From Eledone cirrhosa (taxonomy: Eukaryota), in NCBI GenBank assembly GCA_964016885.1, contig OZ024757.1, positions 21,328,001-21,392,000 on the forward strand: a DNA stretch of 64,000 nt, read 5' to 3'. A program made the translations under genes and the position numbers. Under the pieces are notes generated by a model. The model was not told the origin of the DNA. It was given only the letters and a program-made list of their open reading frames with translations, and did no database searches. Shown in pieces: positions 7,881 through 61,320 of this stretch; within the stretch, counting starts at the first letter, position 1, and the number at the start of each line of letters is the position of its first letter.

Positions 7881-8098
7881 AACGATCGACTTTCGTCAAA
7901 TCGGACCGAGGGAACAATGTTTCCGTTGGTCTTTCCAATTGCTAATACTATCTATCGGTCGCAACTCCAGGTAGAAGGAACAACGTGAAATAAAGTGTCT
8001 TGCTCAAGGACATAACGCATCGCCTGGTCCACGAATCGAACTCACAACCTTACGATTGCGAATCCGATTCTCTAACCACTCAGCCACACGCCTTCACC
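7880..8098 (-). mobile_element. tRNA-headed SINE family C
   Basis: Minus strand ggtgaaggcgtgtggctgagtggttagag...gagttcgattcg...ccttgagcaagacactttatttcacg. Confidence 0.85.
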
Positions 8099-8121
8099 AA
8101 TATATATATATATATATATAT

Positions 8122-9330
8122 ATATGTTCTAGTTTGTAGGAAAGAAAACAAGGCGGCGGTCCCTTCTGGGAAATGGTCGTGCTCGGTATGTAGGAAAGGT
8201 GTAGGTAGAAACTCCATCTTATGTCCTAAATGCAAAGTATGGGTGCATAAAAGATGTAGTGGGATCACAGGTAAGCTAACTAAGAACATAGACTTTACAT
8301 GTGGCCGGTGTTCTGGTGCAATAAGTAGCAGCAAGTGCCCACAAAATACTAGCTCTTTCAATTGCGCAGAGGGTTCTATAGAAATAGTGGACAGCTTCCG
8401 TTACCTGGGCGATAAAATCAGCAGTGGGGGAGGGTGCTCTGAAAGTACTGTAGCTAGAGTCAGAACTGGTTGGAAAAAGTTCAGAGAGCTTATACCACTA
8501 TTAGCTGCTAAAGGGTTCTCCCTAAAAATGAAAGGCAGGTTGTACGATGCCTGCATACGAACAGCAATGTTGCATGGTAGTGAGACCTGGGCATTGTGTG
8601 CAGAGGATATACGCAGACTAGAGAGGAACGAAGCTTGCATGCTCCGCTGGATGTGTAACAGTAATATACGTGAACGGCAAAGCATAAACGAACTAAGGAA
8701 AAAATTAGAGATAAGAGGGATCAGATGTTGTTTACTCGAGAGAAGGCTGCGTTGGTATGGACACGTGATGCGCATGAAAGTCGATAGCTGTATTACAAAG
8801 TGCAGGGCAATAAAGATAGACGGTAGCCACGGAATAGGCAGACCTAGAAAAACATGGGATGAGCTGATAAACTCCGACCTCACACACTTACACCTCTCCA
8901 AGACAATGTCACTGGACCGTGACCTTTGGCGGTACTCAGTAACAGAGAAGACCCGCCTTGCCAGTAGGCATCTCTAACAAACTACACCCCGTCCCGCCAC
9001 CACCCCCACCCCATCCACACCACCCCGTTCTATGTAAAGTTATGTTGGTGCCGCGCCATCCAGGCCGAAACAAATGAGATCGTGTAGGTGTCACGACAAA
9101 AAACACACAGTCCACGCTGTAATGTGGCCGTGTAGGCAACACGGTAAAAACCTCCCAGACTCACACTGTAAATGTGGTTGGTGTTAGGAAGGGCATCCAA
9201 CTGTAGAAAACCTGCCAGACAGTCCTATGCGAGCAAGACAATCACTCTTGCCTCAAGTGGGACTACCCCCGTCCAAACCCATGCAAGCGTGGAACACGGA
9301 CGTTAAACGTTGATGATGATGATGATGATG
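8122..9330 (+). mobile_element. 5'-truncated RTE-clade LINE (family RTE-2): RT C-terminal part (ORF to 8977) plus ~350-bp 3' UTR ending in (GAT)n
   Basis: ORF has FRYLG (RT motif 7), MLHGSETW, RRLRWYGHVMRM and GRPRKTW, typical of the RTE/BovB RT C-terminus. Same 3' end at 40580-41047 and 54150-54957. Confidence 0.92.
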
Positions 9331-9341
9331 ATATAACAAAA

Positions 9342-14193: not shown

Positions 14194-14533
14194 GGAGGCA
14201 CATGGCTTAGTGGTTAGAGCATTGGGCTTGCAATCAAAAGGTTGTGAGTTCAATTCTCAGACCGGGTGATGTGTTGTTTCCTTGAGCAAGACACTTTATT
14301 TCACATTGCTCCAGTTTACTCAGCTGTAGAAATGAGATGATAGGGACTGGGGTCCCTATTATTCCACTGCAAAGTGGTCATGCAGGTGCCACGGCAAAAA
14401 AGCACCCAGCACTCACTGTAAATGAGGTTGGTGTTAGGAAGGCCATCCAGCTGTAGAAATCAAGGCAGAATCAGTTCCCGTCCCACCCTTGCAAGCAGGG
14501 AAAAAGCAGACGTAAAATGAAATGATGATGATG
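14194..14533 (+). mobile_element. SINE family B (1 unit)
   Basis: ggaggcacatggcttagtggttagagc (A box) ... gagttcaattctc (B box) ... gcaagcagggaaaaagcagacgtaaaatga..(tga)n. Confidence 0.9.
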
Positions 14534-14711
14534 ATATAATATTATTCGAAATATTAATAAATGAAAAATATTTTGAATAATATTAAATACTCCAGAAAAA
14601 TCCTGTCGAGTGCTTCTAATCTATTGTAAAATTGTATTCGTTGAATAATCAACGAACCATATAAACTTTGGTTATATATATATATATATATATATAGTTT
14701 TAATATAGATG

Positions 14712-16562: not shown

Positions 16563-16800
16563 TTGGCAAAAAAGCACCCAGCCCACACTGTAAAGTGGAC
16601 GTGTAGGCGCCACGAAAAAGCACCCAGCACTTACTGTAAATGAGGTTGGTGTTAGGAAGGGCATCCAGCTGTAGAAATCAAGCCAAATCAGTTCCTGTAT
16701 GAGCAAGGCATGGTCAGCCGACCAGACACTGCCCACAACAGGACAACCCGTCTAACCCATGCTAGCATGGAAGAACGGACGTAAAACGGTGATGATGATG
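16563..16800 (+). mobile_element. SINE B-related 3' fragment with alternative RTE-type tail (ccatgctagcatggaagaacggacgtaaaac)
   Basis: 49-bp units plus ggaagggcatccagctgtagaaa, then a different terminal segment ending in (GAT)n. Confidence 0.75.
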
Positions 16801-16874
16801 ATATATATATATATATATATATATCATCATCATCATTTAACGTCCATCTTCCACGCTTGCATGGGTTTGATATA

Positions 16875-17909: not shown

Positions 17910-18543
17910 TCATCACCATCATCATTTTACATCCACTTTTCTCTGCTTGCAAGGGTGGGACGGGAACTGATTCTGGCTTGATTTCTACAGCTGGATGCCC
18001 TTCCTAACACCAACCTCATTTACAGTGAGTGCTGGGTGCTTTTTTGCCGTGGCACCTCCACGTCCACTTTGCAGTGTGGGCTGGGTGCTTTTTTGCCGCG
18101 GCACCTACACGACCACTTTGCAGTGTGGGCTGCGTGCTTTTTTGCCGCGGCACCTACACGACCTCTTTGCAGTGTGGGCTGTGTGCTTTTTTTCCGCGGC
18201 ACCTACACGACCACTTTGCAGTGTGGGCTGTGTGCTTTTTTGCCGCGGCACCTACACGACCACTTTGCAGTGTGGGCTGGGTGCTTTTTTGCCGTGGCAC
18301 CTCCACGTCCACTTTGCAGTGTGGGCTGGGTCCTTTTTTTGCCGTGGCACCTCCACGTACACTTTACAGTGCAATGATAGATAGGGACCCCAGTCCCTAT
18401 CATCTCATTTCTACAGCTGAGTAAACTGGAGCAATATGAAATAAAGTTTCTTGCTCAAGGAAACAACACATCACCCGGTCTGAGAATTGAACTCACAACC
18501 TTTCGATTGCAAGGTCAATGCTCTAACCACTAAGCCATGTGCC
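17910..18543 (-). mobile_element. SINE family B with 7 tandem 49-bp units
   Basis: Family B ends flank a tandem array at ~18020-18370. Confidence 0.9.
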
Positions 18544-19669: not shown

Positions 19670-21727
19670 CATCATCATCATCATCATCATCATCATTTTA
19701 CATCCGCTTTTCCCTGCTTGCAAGGGTGGGACGGGTCTTATTCAGCACAGCATCTCTCCACTCGTCACGGTCCCTCGTCATCTCCACCGTGAGCTTCAAT
19801 GATCTGAGGTCTGTTCTCACCACCTCCGCCCATGTTTTTCGTGGTCTACCTCTACCACGTCTTCCTTCAACTGGCATTTCCTGGCACTTCTTCACCCATC
19901 GGTCATCCTCCATGCGCATCACATGTCCATACCACCTCAGTCTCCTCTCCCGTACACTACATTCTATCCCTCTCAGACACAGTTTCTCTCTCAACACATT
20001 TATGCTGGGTCGTTCACGCACATTTACACTGCACATCCAACGGAGCATGCTTGCCTCATTTCTCTCCAGCCGTCGCATATCTTCTGCGGTAGCTGCCCAT
20101 GTCTCACTACCATGCAGCATCGCGCTCCTCACACAGGCATCATACAACCGGCCTTTCGTACGCAGGGAGAAACCCTTCTTCGTCAACAGAGGAAGCAGCT
20201 CCCTAAACTTCTTCCAACCCGTCCTTATTCTAGATACTATGGCCTCGGAACACCCTCCTCCCATGCTAATCTGATCTCCTAGGTACCGGAAGCTATCCAC
20301 CACTTCTATAGCGCCCTCTCGCATTTGAAAAATGTGTCTATCAGTGCGACTTCTACTGTCTAATTTCCCTGTACATCTACTGCATACATATTTCTCCCTA
20401 CCTGTTAGTTTGCCTGCTATCCCGCTACATCTCTTGTGTACCCAGGACCTACATTGTGTGCATTTTATAGAATTTATGCCAGTTCCTTTTCTGCATATCG
20501 AACATGGCCATTTCCCTGACGGAATCAGGGTTTTGTCCTCTTTTCTACTCATCAACACTTTTGTCTTAGCTAGATTTACTCTCAGTCCTCTTGCTTCCAA
20601 CTGCTGTTTCCATAGCCGGAATTTATTCTCTAGCTCCTCTACTGATTCTGCCATAAGAGCCAGATCGTCAGCATAGAGAAGTTCCCATGGACAGCCAGTC
20701 TTAAACTCCTCTGTTATGGCTTGGAGGACTATAATGAACAAGAGCGGGCTGAGGACCGAACCCTGATGTACTCCTACTTGTATCTGGAATTCCTCACTAA
20801 ACTCCATTCCTACCCTGACTTTACTGAGAGTACCTCTGTACAAAGTTTGCACTGTCCTTACAAGCCATTCCTCAACACCCAGCTTCCTTAGGGACCACCA
20901 GATGACAGATCGGGGTACCCTATCAAAGGCCTTCTCTAGGTCAACAAAGGCTAAGTATAGTGGCTTATTCTTCTCTAAGAACCTCTCTTGCATTTGTCTC
21001 ACCAAGAAGAGGGCATCTGTTGTACTCTTCCCAGGCACAAAACCAAACTGCATCTCATCTAGTTTGACCCTTTCTCTAATTAGTTGTGCTAGAATCCTTT
21101 CTGCCACTTTCATAACCTGATCTATCAGTTTTATACCCCTATAATTGCTCCTCTCCAAAGCATCCCCTTTACCTTTGTAGCAATTTATGAGAATACTGCT
21201 GCACCAGTCTTTGGGTATGACACCACCATATATAGCCTGATTGATTATGCGTGCAACCAGTTTAGTGCCTACGTCCCCTGATGCCTTCAGCATCTCAGCA
21301 ACTATTCCCGATGGTCCGCCGCCTTACCATTTTTCATTTCCCTAATCGCCTCTTGGACCCTATATTCGTCAATCTCAATAGCTGGTCCCTCTGTCGGATC
21401 TACCAAGGGTAATTTCTCTCTCTCCCATTCGTTCTCCACATTCATCAGTCTCTCATAATGACATTTCCAGGCCTCCTTTTTCTGGTCATTCGTGACACTA
21501 AGTACACCGGCATCATTCCGGACACATTTATCTCCAACAACATCCTGATTTGCATTGACACACTGCCTTGCAATGTGGAACACCGCACGCCTCTGATCTT
21601 CCCGTCGCAGAACATTGGCAAACCTCCTACTCTCTGCCTCCCTGCGTGCTAAGTACACCTGACGTCTAGCTTCTCTCTTAGTGGCTGTATATTCTTCCCT
21701 ACTCCCACCCTTATTCCAAGCCTTCCA
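19670..21727 (-). mobile_element. 5'-truncated RTE-clade (BovB-like) LINE, family RTE-1
   Basis: ORFs 21302-21745 and 19698-21293 are joined by an apparent 1-bp frameshift near 21318 (GKAA/GPSGIVAEML); (ATG)n tail; inserted in a TA/CA microsatellite; no AP endonuclease part present. Confidence 0.95.
19698..21293 (-). CDS. Non-LTR retrotransposon reverse transcriptase (RTE clade) with internal PHD-like Cys/His finger
   Basis: NYRGIKL, QFGFVPGKST, AFVDLEKAFDRV, GVHQGSVLSPLLF, LYADD, KTKV, FRYLG, HGSETW, RRLRWYGHV, GRGRPRKTW. Confidence 0.93.
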   Translation of the reverse strand: MLKASGDVGTKLVARIINQAIYGGVIPKDWCSSILINCYKGKGDALERSNYRGIKLIDQVMKVAERILAQLIRERVKLDEMQFGFVPGKSTTDALFLVRQMQERFLEKNKPLYLAFVDLEKAFDRVPRSVIWWSLRKLGVEEWLVRTVQTLYRGTLSKVRVGMEFSEEFQIQVGVHQGSVLSPLLFIIVLQAITEEFKTGCPWELLYADDLALMAESVEELENKFRLWKQQLEARGLRVNLAKTKVLMSRKEDKTLIPSGKWPCSICRKGTGINSIKCTQCRSWVHKRCSGIAGKLTGREKYVCSRCTGKLDSRSRTDRHIFQMREGAIEVVDSFRYLGDQISMGGGCSEAIVSRIRTGWKKFRELLPLLTKKGFSLRTKGRLYDACVRSAMLHGSETWAATAEDMRRLERNEASMLRWMCSVNVRERPSINVLREKLCLRGIECSVRERRLRWYGHVMRMEDDRWVKKCQEMPVEGRRGRGRPRKTWAEVVRTDLRSLKLTVEMTRDRDEWRDAVLNKTRPTLASREKRM

Positions 21728-21846
21728 TATATATAAACACAACACACACTTATATATATATACATATCATACATATCACACATATATATATACACAACAC
21801 ACACATATATATATACACACAACACACACATATATATATACACACA

Positions 21847-35801: not shown

Positions 35802-37379
35802 TCCACCCGGTAAAGGGGTCATGTTGGAGCCATGACAAGAAGCACCCAGTCCACCCTGTAAAGGGGTCATGTTGGAGCCATGACGAGTAGAACCCAGTCC
35901 ACCCTGTAAAGGGGTCATGTTGGAGCCATGACAAGAAGCACCCAGTCCACCCTGTAAAGGGGTCATGTTGGAGCCATGACGAGTAGAACCCAGTCCACCC
36001 TGTAAAGGGGTCATGTTGGAGCCATGACAATGAGCACCCAGTCCACCCTGTAAAGGGGTCATGTTGGAGCCATGACGAGTAGCACCCAGTCCACCCTGTA
36101 AAGGGGTCATTTTGGAGACATGACAAGTAGCACCCAGTCCACCCTGTAAAGTGGTCATGTTGGAGCCATGACGAGTAGCACCCAGTCCACCCGGTAAAGG
36201 GGTCATGTTGGAGCCATGACAAGAAGCACCCAGTCCACCCGGTAAAGGGGTCATGTTGGAGCCATGACGAGTAGCACCCAGTCCACCCGGTAAAGGGGTC
36301 ATGTTGGAGCCATGACAAGTAGCACCCAGTCCACCCTGTAAAGGGGTCATGTTGGAGCCATGACAAGTAGCACCCAGTCCACCCTGTAAAGGGGTCATGT
36401 TGGAGCCATGACAAGAAGCACCCAGTCCACCCTGTAAAGTGGTCATGTTGGAGCCATGACAAGTAGCACCCAGTCCACCCTGTAAAGTGGTCATGTTGGA
36501 GCCATGACAAGAAGCACCCAGTCCACCCTGTAAAGTGGTCATGTTGGAGCCATGACAAGTAGCACCCAGTCCACCCGGTAAAGGGGTCATGTTGGAGCCA
36601 TGACAATGAGCACCCAGTCCACCCGGTAAAGGGGTCATGTTGGAGCCATGACGAGTAGCACCCAGTCCACCCTGTAAAGTGGTCATGTTAGAGCCATGAC
36701 AAGTAGCACCCAGTCCACCCTGTAAAGGGGTCATGTTGGAGCCATGACAATGAGCACCCAGTCCACCCTGTAAAGGGGTCATGTTGGAGCCATGACGAGT
36801 AGAACCCAGTCCACCCTGTAAAGGGGTCATGTTGGAGCCATGACAAGTAGCACCCAGTCCACCCTGTAAAGGGGTCATGTTGGAGCCATGACAAGAAGCA
36901 CCCAGTCCACCCTGTAAAGTGGTCATGTTGGAGCCATGACAAGTAGCACCCAGTCCACCCTGTAAAGTGGTCATGTTGGAGCCATGACAAGTAGCACCCA
37001 GTCCACCCTGTAAAGGGGTCATGTTGGAGCCATGACAAGTAGCACCCAGTCCACCCTGTAAAGTGGTCATGTTGGAGCCATGACAAGAAGCACCCAGTCC
37101 ACCCTGTAAAGGGGTCATGTTGGAGCCATGACAAGTAGCACCCAGTCCACCCTGTAAAGTGGTCATGTTGGAGCCATGACAAGAAGCACCCAGTCCACCC
37201 TGTAAAGTGGTCATGTTGGAGCCATGACAAGAAGCAGCCAGTCCACCCTGTAAAGTGGTCATATTGGAGCCATGACAATTAGCACCCAGTCCACCCTGTA
37301 AAGGGGTCATGACAAGTAGCACCCAGTCCACCCTGTAAAGTGGTCATGTCGGAGCCATGACAAGTAGCACCTAGTCCAC
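35802..37379. repeat. 48-bp minisatellite, ~33 units, homologous to the SINE B internal 49-bp unit
   Basis: Unit tccaccctgtaaag(g/t)ggtcatgttggagccatgacaag(t/a)agcacccag. Confidence 0.95.
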
Positions 37380-39572: not shown

Positions 39573-40329
39573 GGAGGCACATGGCTTAATGGTTAGAGCA
39601 TTGGCCTTGCAGTCGAAAGGTTGCGAGTTCAATTCTCAGACCGGGTGATGTGTTGTTTCCTTGAGCAAGACACTTTATTTCACATTGCTCCAGTTTACTC
39701 AGCTGTAGAAATGAGATGATAGGGACTGGGGTCCCTATCATTCCACTGCAAAGTGGGCGTGGAGGTGCCACGGAAAAAAAAGCACCCAGCACTCACTGTA
39801 AAGTGGTCGTGGAGGTGCCACGTCAAAAAAGCACCCAGCACTCACTGTAAATGAGGTTGGTGTTATGAAGGGCATCCAGCTGTAGAAATCAAGCCAGAAT
39901 CAGTTCCCGTCCCACCCTTGCAAGCAGGGAAAAGTGGACGTAAAATGACAATGATGATGATGATTTTCTCTGCTTGCAAGGGTTTGTGTCATCATCATCA
40001 TCATCATTTTACGTCCACTTTTCCCTGCTTGCAAGGGTGGGACGGGAACTGATTCTGGCTTGATTTCTACAGCTGGATGCCCTTCCTAACACCAACCTCA
40101 TTTACAGTGAGTGCTGGGTGCTTTTTTGCCGTGGCACCTCCACGACCACTTTGCAGTGGAATGATAGGGACCCCAGTCCCTATCATCTCATTTCTACAGC
40201 TGAGTAAACTGGAGCAATGTGAAATAAAGTGTCTTGCTCAAGGAAACAACACATCACCCGGCCTGAGAATTGAACTCACAACCTTTCGATTGCAAGGCCA
40301 ACGCTCTAACCACTAAGCCATGTGCCTCC
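39573..40329. mobile_element. Two full SINE family B copies tail-to-tail (39573-39963 plus, 2 units; 39989-40329 minus, 1 unit)
   Basis: Both have tRNA head, central domain and RTE tail. Confidence 0.92.
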
Positions 40330-40334
40330 ATGTG

Positions 40335-47869: not shown

Positions 47870-48743
47870 AATGGGGTCCCTATCATTCCACTGCAAAGTG
47901 GTCGTGGAGGTGCCATGGCAAAAAAGCACCCAGCACTCACTGTAAAGTGGACGTGTAGGTGCCACGGCAAAAAAGCACCCAGCACTCACTATAAAGTTGT
48001 CGTGGAGGTGCCACGGCAAAAAAGCACCCAGCACTCACTGTAAAGTTGTCGTGGAGGTGCCACGGCAAAAAAGCACCCAGCACTCACTGTAAAGTGGTCG
48101 TGGGGGTGCCATGGCAAAAAAGCACCCACCACTCACTATAAAGTTGTCGTGGAGGTGCCACGGCAAAAAAGCACCCAGCACTCACTGTAAAGTTGTCGTG
48201 GAGGAGCCACGGGAAAAAAGCACCCACCACTCACTGTAAAGTGGTCGTGGGGGTGCCATGGCAAAAAAGCACCCAGCACTCACTGTAAAGTGGTCGTGGG
48301 GGTGCCATGGCAAAAAAGCACCCACCACTCACTATAAAGTTGTCGTGGAGGTGCCACGGCAAAAAAGCACCCAGCACTCACTGTAAAGTGGACGTGTAGG
48401 CGCCATGGAAAAAAACGCCCTCTGCACTCACTGTAAAGTGGTCGTGTAGGTGCCACGGCAAAAAAGCACCCAGCACTCACTGTAAAGTGGACGTGTAGGC
48501 GCCATGGGAAAAAACGCCTTCTGCACTCACTGTAAAGTGGTCATGGAGGTGTCATGGCAAAAAAGCACCCAGCACTCACTATAAAGTGGATGTGGAGGTG
48601 CCACGGCAAAAAAGCACCCAGCATTCACTGTAAATGAGGTTGGTGTTAGGAAGGGCATCCAGCTGTAGAAATCAAGCCAGAATCAGTTCCCGTCCCACCC
48701 TTGCAAGCAGGGGAAAAGTGGACGTAAAATGATGATGATGATG
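47870..48743 (+). mobile_element. 5'-truncated SINE family B with 15 tandem 49-bp units
   Basis: ggggtccctatcattcc + array 47888-48630 + RTE tail. Confidence 0.92.
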
Positions 48744-60014: not shown

Positions 60015-61320
60015 CAGGGTGGGGCATAATTCCTGTTACAAAGTTTTAAATCAATTTAAAAATACATTATGTTGCTAGTATAACTAATATATTTGTATCA
60101 AATCCATGCACTATAACCATATTAACTATTTTTCAGAACATTACACCATTAACAATTTGCAATGTCCATAGAATTGAAAATAAAGTTCATAATAGAGAAG
60201 CATGAAAAAGTCCTGACTCCACCCAAGATATTTAAACTGGGGAAAACTCCTAAGATCAATAGAATGTTGATCAAAAGGACAATCGATTGATTTAAGGAAA
60301 TTTCCTCGACCAAAGACAGACCTCAATCCAGACACCCTTGCACCTCAAAAACACCAAAACTCGTTAAAAGTGTGAAGGAAAATATACGCCGTAATCCAAG
60401 AAGGTCCATGAGAAAAATGGCAGAAGAAGGAATAACATCGCTGAGAACTATGTGGAGGATATGTCGAGATGATCTGGGAATGTCACCCTATAAGTTCCAA
60501 AAGAGGCAGCTTCTTTCTGCAGCCACAATTGAAAAGAGGCTCTCCAGAAGTAAACTGTTATTGAACCGTATCAAGAATGGCACGCTGCAAAACATCATCT
60601 TTACAGACGAGAAGTTATTCACTGTGCAGCAGTCTCACAATCATCAAAATGATCGAGTACTTGCAAAAAGTCTCAAATCAATTCCTTCAAGTGTAGGAAA
60701 AGTGTTCAGAACACAGAAACCAGCATAAGTGATGGTTTGGGCAGCCATTTCTGAAAGAGGGAAGTTTCCTCTGATTTTTGTACCTCAAGGAGTTAAAATT
60801 AACAAAGAACTTTACATAAAGGATATTTTGGAAGGAGCACTGATGCCATGGTGCACATCTGTTTATGGCGATGACATTTGGACTCTCCAACAAGATGGAG
60901 CGACGAGCCACACTGCTTGCGTAACACAACAGTGGTGTAGAGACCATTGTCCTGCATGGATCAGTAAGGAAGAGTGGCCTCCCACATCACCAGATCTCAA
61001 CACTCTCGATTTTTCTTTATGGTCAATTCTTGAGAGTGAAGCCTGCTCTACTCCTAGCCAAAATATTGAAACTCTAAAATCAAAACTGAATAAAGTATGG
61101 GAGAAAATAACCATGGAAACTGTTCGTGCAGCCATCGAAGACTTTCCTAGAAGACTTCAAGCAGTAATGAGAGCTAGAGGAAAGCATTTCGAATAAATTT
61201 TTGTGCAGTTGTTTAATAGTATATTACTTATTATTTGTTGAAGTCAGATCTTGAAATAAATGTTTTTTTTCAAGAACTATTTACATTTTATTTTGTAACA
61301 GTTTTTTATGCCCCACCCTG
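60015..61320 (+). mobile_element. Full-length Tc1/mariner superfamily transposon, DD37D (maT) type
   Basis: TA|CAGGGTGGGGCATAA...TTATGCCCCACCCTG|TA; 1306 bp; inserted in (TA)n. Confidence 0.95.
60162..61196 (+). pseudogene. DD37D transposase, 344 codons in one frame with two premature stops (TGA 60288, TAA 60726)
   Basis: IIFTDEKLF, VMVWAAIS, QQDGATSH, WPPTSPDLNTLDFSLW; 37 residues between the second and third Asp by manual count. Confidence 0.92.

What the first reader, a model, noticed from the sequence alone, without database searches (positions are those of the whole stretch)
47888..48630. The SINE-internal 49-nt VNTR unit looks like a structured RNA module (GNRA hairpin + H-type pseudoknot) with compensatory changes
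Seen: the unit cactgtaaagtggtcgtggaggtgccacggcaaaaaagcacccagcact reads as CACT-GTAA-AGTG, a GNRA hairpin (the variant GCAA keeps GNRA). It continues as stem 1 CGTGG/CCACG, whose loop GGTG can pair with CACC after an A-rich linker. Two units change both stem-2 strands together (GGCG 48399 / CGCC 48416; GGCG 48498 / CGCC 48515). The LINE 3' UTR versions keep pairing with different sequence: TCGTG/CACGA with loop GTGT vs ACAC (9080-9108), and CCGTG/CACGG with loop AGG vs CCT (9128-9153). The 48-bp satellite has CCCT-GTAA-AGGG and GTCATG/CATGAC. Copy number per SINE is 1,1,1,1,1,2,3,3,7,15. Established: short L1 plus A-rich L3 is the usual H-type pseudoknot geometry. Inference: a multimerising structured element under selection in retroelement RNA (RT/RNP recruitment, nuclease resistance or stability). 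I know of no description of it. Some units break the pairings.
Basis: partly seen in the sequence, partly recalled or inferred. Interest (0 to 1): 0.75.

Follow-up and report, generated by a model that had tools for sequence, protein, structure and literature searches.

The report
Retrotransposon leader fragment repeated in tandem
This 49-letter repeat is a cut-down piece of a jumping gene's leader sequence that likely folds into a small RNA knot in the parent element, while its 15-fold repetition here most likely arose by ordinary DNA duplication and has no job of its own.

Summary
The array, motifs and copy numbers are real, but the headline evidence fails. The GGCG loop allele stands 14,650 times with the mismatching CACC and 36 times with CGCC; the two window units are one duplicated event. 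Only 5 of 15 units keep every proposed pairing, and arrays are locus-private.

An intact RTE family (RTE-C) carries hairpin + P1/P2 domain + this pseudoknot + a second module in its 5' UTR, and its 3' end matches the SINE's. The SINE is therefore bipartite RTE-derived. The unit is the 3' end of the conserved RTE 5'-UTR (Ceph) domain, minus about 41 nt. Two other RTE families carry two copies in their 3' UTRs, the second degraded.

Across 22 families stem 1 covaries modestly. Stem 2 is kept but not significant (tree-aware p about 0.03-0.13). Verdict: a likely pseudoknot in master RNAs, no selected multimer. The scan earlier noted a related satellite on other DNA of this genome (e1-9585604).

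The parts
47872..47888 (+). remnant of the SINE body; this copy is 5'-truncated (no tRNA head)
   Evidence: 19-nt match to the same place in five other SINE copies; full copies
47889..48625 (+). 15 tandem 49/50-nt units, each = small hairpin + predicted H-type pseudoknot (S1 CGTGG/CCACG, loop AGGTG, A6 linker, CACC); derived from an RTE 5' UTR
48379..48428 (+). 50-nt unit of the RTE-B second-unit type (GGCG loop) with a private A>G giving CGCC
48478..48527 (+). duplicate of the 48379 unit (99-nt higher-order repeat)
   Evidence: distance matrix
48623..48679 (+). second hairpin (7-nt CTGTAAA loop) and terminal 'T module', widespread in animal retroelements, predicted stem-loop or second pseudoknot
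48689..48743 (+). 3' stem-loop and (GAT)n tail, 94.6% identical to the RTE-C 3' end
   Evidence: z -2.29
14194..14534 (+). full-length single-unit copy of the same SINE with tRNA-like head (14203-14260)
19671..21766 (-). 5'-truncated copy of RTE-C, the likely partner LINE; no unit or T module in its 3' UTR
   Evidence: 99% to L375 and others
8978..9335 (+). 3' UTR of young RTE-A with two unit copies (9064-9160) and T module
16565..16802 (+). 3' fragment of RTE-B type with the shortened GGCG unit
35802..37379 (+). 48-nt satellite of the same unit; stem 1 kept, stem 2 mismatched
18028..18371 (-). 7-unit array in another SINE copy with its own private variants

Best explanation
The 49-nt unit is a deletion-shortened piece of an RTE LINE 5' UTR inside a bipartite tRNA-SINE; one copy likely folds as a hairpin plus small H-type pseudoknot that is inferred to help the RNA get loaded with the RTE protein, and the 15 copies here most likely grew by DNA duplication after insertion, without selection. 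Shown: the ancestral layout hairpin - P1/P2 domain - pseudoknot - hairpin - T module sits just upstream of the ORF in RTE-C; the SINE has the same layout minus about 41 nt and ends in the RTE-C 3' stem-loop; RTE-A and RTE-B carry two units in their 3' UTR. Inferred: loss of the P1/P2 part left two near-identical hairpin sequences 49 nt apart, and this direct repeat seeds slippage or unequal exchange. RTE-A/B took the module by tail exchange with a bipartite element. One intact pseudoknot per RNA suffices, so second copies decay. The role in RNP assembly rather than translation alone is inferred from retention in untranslated SINEs and in 3' UTRs.
For: 5'-UTR origin: T module in sense 70-125 nt before the endonuclease match in 26 of 30 RTE loci, unit-like match in 23 of 30; 3 of the rest are RTE-A, 1 is inverted. 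Same layout before an endonuclease ORF in metagenome contig L205. SINE end 94.6% to RTE-C versus 80.7% to RTE-A. The domain + unit pattern has 300 genome matches and 0 for the reversed control; 19 of 30 fetched are followed by T, and stem 2 pairs in 16 of the 20 that could be anchored. Stem 1 over 22 families: covariation score reached by 0 of 500 shuffles; under a tree-aware null, paired cells by 2-19 of 400 and double changes by 7-11 of 400. Deep homologues: 97% of cells paired in P2+S1+S2, 6 rows from about 4 families. Arrays: 1.6 differences within versus 2.7 between 27 arrays, private higher-order patterns, both helices intact in 41 of 430 units of arrays over 30 copies. Paired sites mutate no less than unpaired ones in 52 dispersed copies.
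Against: No single pair is significant under the tree-aware null; the best has E 1.6-2.7 over all pairs. Stem 2 alone: 13 of 500 shuffles, and double changes 50-52 of 400. The central stem-2 pair is broken in 6 of 22 families, including the abundant RTE-B second unit and the young RTE-A second unit. Minimum-energy folds of RTE-C, M1 and M2 units prefer other pairings over stem 1, and z-scores are mostly near zero. Only 7 of 116 distinct metagenome T-module upstream regions carry the unit. No probing, expression or binding data exist, so the function is inference.
Confidence: 0.62

Rival explanations
1. Only stem 1 and the flanking hairpins fold; stem 2 is chance complementarity between two conserved sequence motifs, and the module acts as a plain stem-loop or as a DNA-level promoter element.
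For: A 4-bp loop-tail helix arises in 28-48% of shuffled tails. Stem-2 double changes are not significant. Several successful families break it. Kojima 2018 speculates that binding a transcriptional regulator could explain such conserved parts (PMC5786205 section 24).
Against: Stem 2 is paired in 88.6% of cells versus 21-55% for slid controls. Two of its four pairs change on both sides (A-T for G-C in 4 rows, A-T for T-A in 1 row). Paired cells are matched by only 11-17 of 400 tree nulls. Two-sided changes point to RNA rather than DNA.
Confidence: 0.22
2. The 5'-UTR module is a translation-initiation or ribosome-docking element (two small pseudoknots in front of the AUG); SINEs and LINE 3' UTRs keep it because docking on ribosomes brings them near nascent RTE protein.
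For: It lies just before the ORF in RTE-C and L205. The T module has a downstream partner of 5 bp or more for its loop in 18 of 74 dereplicated hits versus 3.6 in shuffles, maximum 11. Analogy with viral IRES pseudoknots and Alu/SRP docking is recalled, the latter also stated in PMC7245038.
Against: The distance to the AUG differs (about 14 nt after the partner strand in L205, about 41 nt in RTE-C). RTE-A translates without it in its 5' UTR (0 of 8 loci). The loop side of T was fixed by my search pattern, so it cannot show covariation.
Confidence: 0.12
3. One reading: the unit multimerises because more copies give the RNA more recruitment or nuclease resistance, so arrays are under selection.
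For: Two autonomous families retrotranspose with two copies; the full domain is also doubled or tripled in L267 and L101; arrays are very common (758 units in 1.44 Mb).
Against: 80 of 130 elements have one detected unit. Second copies in RTE-A/B are degraded. Long arrays are locus-private and mostly broken. The cited compensation is a one-off.
Confidence: 0.04

Closest known systems
Bipartite RTE-derived SINEs (Bov-tA, AfroSINE, CoeSINE4/5, HaSE1, hagfish SINE2-1_EBu; PMC5786205 passages and sections, PMC7245038 parts 1-3 of 4)
   Same: tRNA head + body + inner piece of an RTE 5' UTR + RTE 3' end + microsatellite tail.
   Different: Here the 5'-UTR piece is a tandem repeat of variable number, and it has also been taken into the 3' UTR of two autonomous RTE families.
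[quoted passage not shown]
   Same: Same CYCTTYAG-hairpin-CTAG frame, mid-5'-UTR position, sometimes doubled. The unit's stem 1 sits where the domain has GAG/CTC, which reads GGG/CCC in RTE-1_NV, RTE-4_NV, RTE-3_BF and RTE-1_DR (by eye).
   Different: The paper gives no structure or function in the parts read ('pseudoknot' not searched there; 'structure' passages concern element layout). The canonical loop is 7-8 nt with at most 2-3 invariant loop-tail pairs; the form here has a 5-nt loop and a 4-bp stem 2, and the SINE unit has lost P1/P2.
SINE-derived satellites (sSat) of squamates (PMC10702118, passages and Discussion read)
   Same: Tandem repeats of an inner SINE part with a longer terminal unit reaching the SINE end; a range from internal duplications to long arrays; homogeneity within loci.
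   Different: Shorter unit (48-49 nt), invertebrate genome, and the unit comes from an RTE 5' UTR.
Compact H-type pseudoknots with A-rich loop 3 (luteovirus frameshift, preQ1-I, TMV upstream pseudoknot domain; recalled, not from a call)
   Same: Stem-loop, 1-nt L1, short stem 2, A-rich L3; tandem arrangement as in TMV.
   Different: No Rfam family matches; no slippery site or ligand known; fold not probed.
HDV-like and twister ribozymes in RTE/R2/L1Tc 5' UTRs (search listings and abstracts only; Ruminski 2011 not held)
   Same: Structured, pseudoknotted RNA in a non-LTR 5' UTR; the P1-encloses-hairpin then hairpin order loosely resembles HDV.
   Different: No Rfam ribozyme hit even at E<=5-10; the domain is kept inside SINEs, where cleavage would cut off the head.

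Membership tests
Bipartite RTE-derived tRNA SINE | tRNA-derived head | tested here: met
   Rfam tRNA 31.6 bits at 14203-14260; same head in the other full copies; the 47872 copy itself is truncated
Bipartite RTE-derived tRNA SINE | segment from an RTE 5' UTR | tested here: met
   unit + T module in RTE-C 5' UTRs; pairwise alignment with a 41-nt gap
Bipartite RTE-derived tRNA SINE | 3' end shared with an RTE LINE, microsatellite tail | tested here: met
   94.6% over 56 nt to RTE-C, (GAT)n tail
Bipartite RTE-derived tRNA SINE | partner LINE belongs to the RTE clade by RT phylogeny | not tested
   single ORF with Exo_endo_phos-like, RVT_1 and PHD domains and the Ceph-type domain fit RTE (recalled); no tree built
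Bipartite RTE-derived tRNA SINE | target-site duplication | tested here: inconclusive
   flanks of the 47872 copy show no clear duplication
Conserved RTE 5'-UTR (Ceph 3'-half) domain | sequence similarity to the published domain | tested here: met
   by-eye match of L186/L267 to the supplement's sequences; 28 of 75 invariant columns RTE-C vs L186/L267; 300 vs 0 pattern matches. Pairwise score against the one canonical-type copy held (L369) was weak: 14-129 of 500 shuffles
Conserved RTE 5'-UTR (Ceph 3'-half) domain | located inside the 5' UTR | tested here: met
SINE-derived satellite (sSat) | tandem units of a SINE part, ending in a unit that runs to the SINE terminus | tested here: met
SINE-derived satellite (sSat) | within-locus homogenisation | tested here: met
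   1.6 within vs 2.7 between arrays
SINE-derived satellite (sSat) | subtelomeric preference | not tested
   sampling was not designed for it
H-type pseudoknot | two crossing helices with compatible loop lengths | tested here: met
   geometry rule from established knowledge
H-type pseudoknot | stem 1 covaries | tested here: met
   helix-level only; no single pair significant
H-type pseudoknot | stem 2 covaries | tested here: inconclusive
   13 of 500 shuffles; tree null 11-17 of 400 for paired cells, 50-52 of 400 for double changes
H-type pseudoknot | forms in solution | not testable with these tools
   needs probing; no pseudoknot folder available
GNRA tetraloop hairpin | stem closed around GNRA and kept across families | tested here: inconclusive
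   CCACT-GCAA-AGTGG (SINE) vs CCACC-GCAA-GGTGG (RTE-B) is one compensation; RTE-A, RTE-C and the pre-T hairpin use a 7-8 nt loop instead
Rfam ribozymes, riboswitches and viral pseudoknots | covariance-model match | tested here: not met
   no relevant hit at gathering score or at E<=5-10

The most novel reading that the evidence does not exclude
The conserved RTE 5'-UTR (Ceph) domain, known so far only as sequence, is a modular RNA machine: a two-helix arm followed by two small pseudoknots in front of the start codon that docks ribosomes or the RTE protein. It is the reason RTE LINEs so often spawn bipartite SINEs, and in this genome it was captured by SINEs, moved into LINE 3' UTRs and turned into tens of thousands of repeat units.
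Probability: 0.25. Interest if true: 0.75.

Novelty: new variant of a known kind. Interest (0 to 1): 0.42.

Why it matters
Why RTE-derived SINEs keep an inner piece of the LINE 5' UTR is open; Kojima 2018 only speculates. A defined fold with testable base pairs makes the question experimental. RTE UTRs are also being used and optimised in gene-insertion tools (PMC13708176 passages), so a mapped cis-element would be useful there. The tandem array itself matters little: it is one more case of a SINE part growing into minisatellites and satellites.

Tried and rejected
Rfam: only a tRNA head at gathering score; weak unrelated hits at E<=5-10. Pistol, twister, HDV and preQ1 resemblances were recalled and found no support. 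GGCG/CGCC as compensation rejected. 3'-UTR origin rejected. Expression: no RNA holder listed; laying four contig runs on the RTE-C 5' UTR gave only short partial pieces, so nothing on expression. A canonical Ceph-type pattern found 0 matches in this genome; viral-contig scans gave 0, 1, 0 and 0 usable hits. The T-module motif was not found as text in Kojima's supplement (line breaks could hide it). The first neutrality run used an array-biased reference and was redone. No covariance model was built, because searches of this genome return mostly near-identical young copies. Literature searches with no structural description of this domain or unit in listings or passages read.

Full report
Setting. 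The window lies in a 3.0-Gb, repeat-rich animal genome (G000:C18); its repeats suggest an octopod, which I did not test. It holds ten copies of a tRNA-headed SINE and fragments of three RTE-like LINE families that I call A, B and C.

Observation. The 49-nt array (15.2 copies), the quoted coordinates and the copy numbers are right. The copy at 47872-48743 is 5'-truncated. Of its 15 units, 9 keep the GNRA hairpin, 11 the 5-bp stem 1, 14 the 4-bp stem 2, and 5 all three. Single units fold no better than shuffles, and a 4-bp loop-tail helix appears in 28% of shuffled tails, so one sequence alone proves nothing.

The cited compensation. The units at 48379 and 48478 differ at 1 compared site and form a 99-nt higher-order repeat. 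Their exact pattern occurs only here (2 matches). The GGCG loop is the normal second unit of RTE-B and stands with the mismatching CACC 14,650 times and with CGCC 36 times. This is one late A>G change on an old allele, then duplicated.

How the arrays arose. The commonest unit pattern has 33,755 exact matches. In 139 stretches (1.44 Mb, enriched for small chromosomes) 842 profile hits gave 758 units after dropping 84 low-scoring ones, in 130 elements or arrays, 80 with one unit and one with 207. In 27 SINE arrays of 5 or more units, units differ by 1.6 sites within and 2.7 between arrays, and each array has its own variant pattern. Both helices are intact in 25 of 80 single units, 21 of 50, 35 of 97 and 36 of 101 in growing size classes, and 41 of 430 in arrays over 30 copies (the single class includes RTE-A units that pair in another register). 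In 52 dispersed copies paired sites changed at 3.5-5.4%, unpaired at 2.2%, CpG sites at 11%. I infer neutral DNA-level expansion after insertion, seeded by the two near-identical hairpin sequences that flank a single unit.

Where the unit comes from. In L205 a unit-like stem-loop, a hairpin and T lie just before an endonuclease ORF. Searching G000 with that protein gave 30 loci: 26 have T in sense 70-125 nt before the match, 1 inverted, and 3 are RTE-A without it; 23 also match the unit profile. This family, RTE-C, has many intact 1,024-1,046-residue frames, is the LINE at window 19671-21766, has no unit in its 3' UTR, and its 3' end matches the SINE's at 94.6% against 80.7% for RTE-A. The SINE aligns to the RTE-C 5' UTR with one gap of about 41 nt. 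RTE-A has two units plus T in the 3' UTR in 8 of 8 long copies and none in its own 5' UTR. RTE-B also has two units after its ORF (10 of 13 places had an RTE match upstream). The SINE is thus bipartite in the sense of Kojima (PMC5786205, passages, part 3 of 5 and section 24; PMC7245038, parts 1-3 of 4).

Link to a known domain. The 41 nt lost from the SINE are the arm of the conserved RTE 5'-UTR/Ceph domain. L186, L177, L191, L242, L267 and L273 match the supplement's sequences by eye and run straight into the unit; L267 has two domains in tandem. RTE-C aligns to them with 28 of 75 invariant columns. A domain + unit pattern has 300 matches in G000 and 0 for its control; 19 of 30 fetched are followed by T. 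Against this, the one canonical-type copy held as DNA (L369) scored weakly against them, and only 7 of 116 distinct metagenome upstream regions carry the unit. I read one of 15 supplement parts plus passages; the rest may hold more.

Is the fold real? I aligned one natural copy for each of 22 families, chosen by hand (18 from G000, 4 from metagenomes); rare single-copy types were left out. Stem 1: 77.9% paired, 4 of 7 pairs change on both sides, score reached by 0 of 500 shuffles. The innermost pair takes four forms (T-A, A-T, C-G, G-C) but is broken in 11 of 22; in most of those the 3' base can pair instead with the base before CACC. Stem 2: 88.6% paired, 2 of 4 pairs change on both sides, 13 of 500; its central pair is broken in 6 of 22. 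With substitutions re-dealt on a tree, stem 1 paired cells were matched by 2-19 of 400 nulls and double changes by 7-11; stem 2 by 11-17 and 50-52; no single pair was significant. The tree rests on 33 columns and is weak. Six deep homologues give 97% pairing over P2, stem 1 and stem 2, but represent about four families. The RTE-C centroid fold shows P1, P2 and stem 1, with z near zero; L186 folds otherwise. So stem 1 is moderately supported and the pseudoknot is plausible but unproven.

The small hairpin and T. The hairpin before T reads CTCA/TGAG in 35 stretches and CCACA/TGTGG in 18, around a 7-nt loop. The first units of SINE and RTE-B read CCACT-GCAA-AGTGG and CCACC-GCAA-GGTGG. Both a large-loop and a GNRA form therefore have one compensation each. 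T may be a second pseudoknot: 18 of 74 dereplicated hits have a 5-bp partner for its loop after an A-rich linker, against 3.6 in shuffles; the loop side was fixed by the search pattern.

Mechanism. Shown: origin, layout, partner LINE, neutral behaviour of arrays. Inferred: the module is a cis-acting RNA element of the RTE life cycle. Its retention in Pol III SINEs and in 3' UTRs argues for loading the RNA with RTE protein rather than for translation alone; decay of second copies argues that one is enough. Rivals are a plain stem-loop or DNA element (0.22), an IRES-like or ribosome-docking element (0.12) and a selected multimer (0.04).

Novelty. Bipartite RTE SINEs and SINE-derived satellites (PMC10702118, passages and Discussion) are known. 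I found no structural description of this domain in nine searches or in passages of PMC4758252, PMC13282606, PMC9115989 and PMC13708176; key subscription papers were out of reach. Verdict: new variant of a known kind, interest 0.42.

Noticed in passing
L297-L307 (genome-contig scan): The T module with SINE-like upstream sequence occurs in contigs of several prokaryote bins, twice within 1.4-2.3 kb in two of them; these look like animal DNA in the bins.
   Followed up: no
L370-L399, RTE-C 5' UTR: A long poly(T) tract and microsatellite-rich sequence shared by many copies lie directly upstream of the structured domain; it could be a Pol III stop or an old inverted poly(A) insertion.
   Followed up: no
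L370:1295-1440, L186, L267: The pyrimidine-rich bulge of the P1/P2 arm is complementary (5-6 bp) to the purine-rich loop of the T module; a long-range contact is possible but both sides are nearly invariant.
   Followed up: no
L101:7546-7798; L267:339-499: The whole 89-nt domain is tripled in L101 and doubled in L267, so duplication of this region predates the 49-nt unit.
   Followed up: partly
L085:4340-4950; L313; L317: A 112-nt repeat made of RTE-A unit 2 plus the T module forms its own tandem arrays.
   Followed up: no
L073, L134, L363, L064, L094: Large arrays (34-207 units within 10 kb) of different unit families; L073 appears to join the loop of one family with the tail of another.
   Followed up: partly
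window 7994-8977 and G000-wide: RTE-A is very young: 150 of 150 scored matches were identical in the C-terminal 125 residues, many in frames over 1,000 residues; the ORF carries a PHD finger after the RT domain (seen in RTE-C).
   Followed up: partly
window 60291-61196 (+): Two open frames that read like a Tc1/mariner transposase (recalled motif resemblance).
   Followed up: no
window 39720-40330: Two SINE copies lie tail to tail in opposite orientation about 30 nt apart, which would form a long RNA duplex if read through.
   Followed up: no
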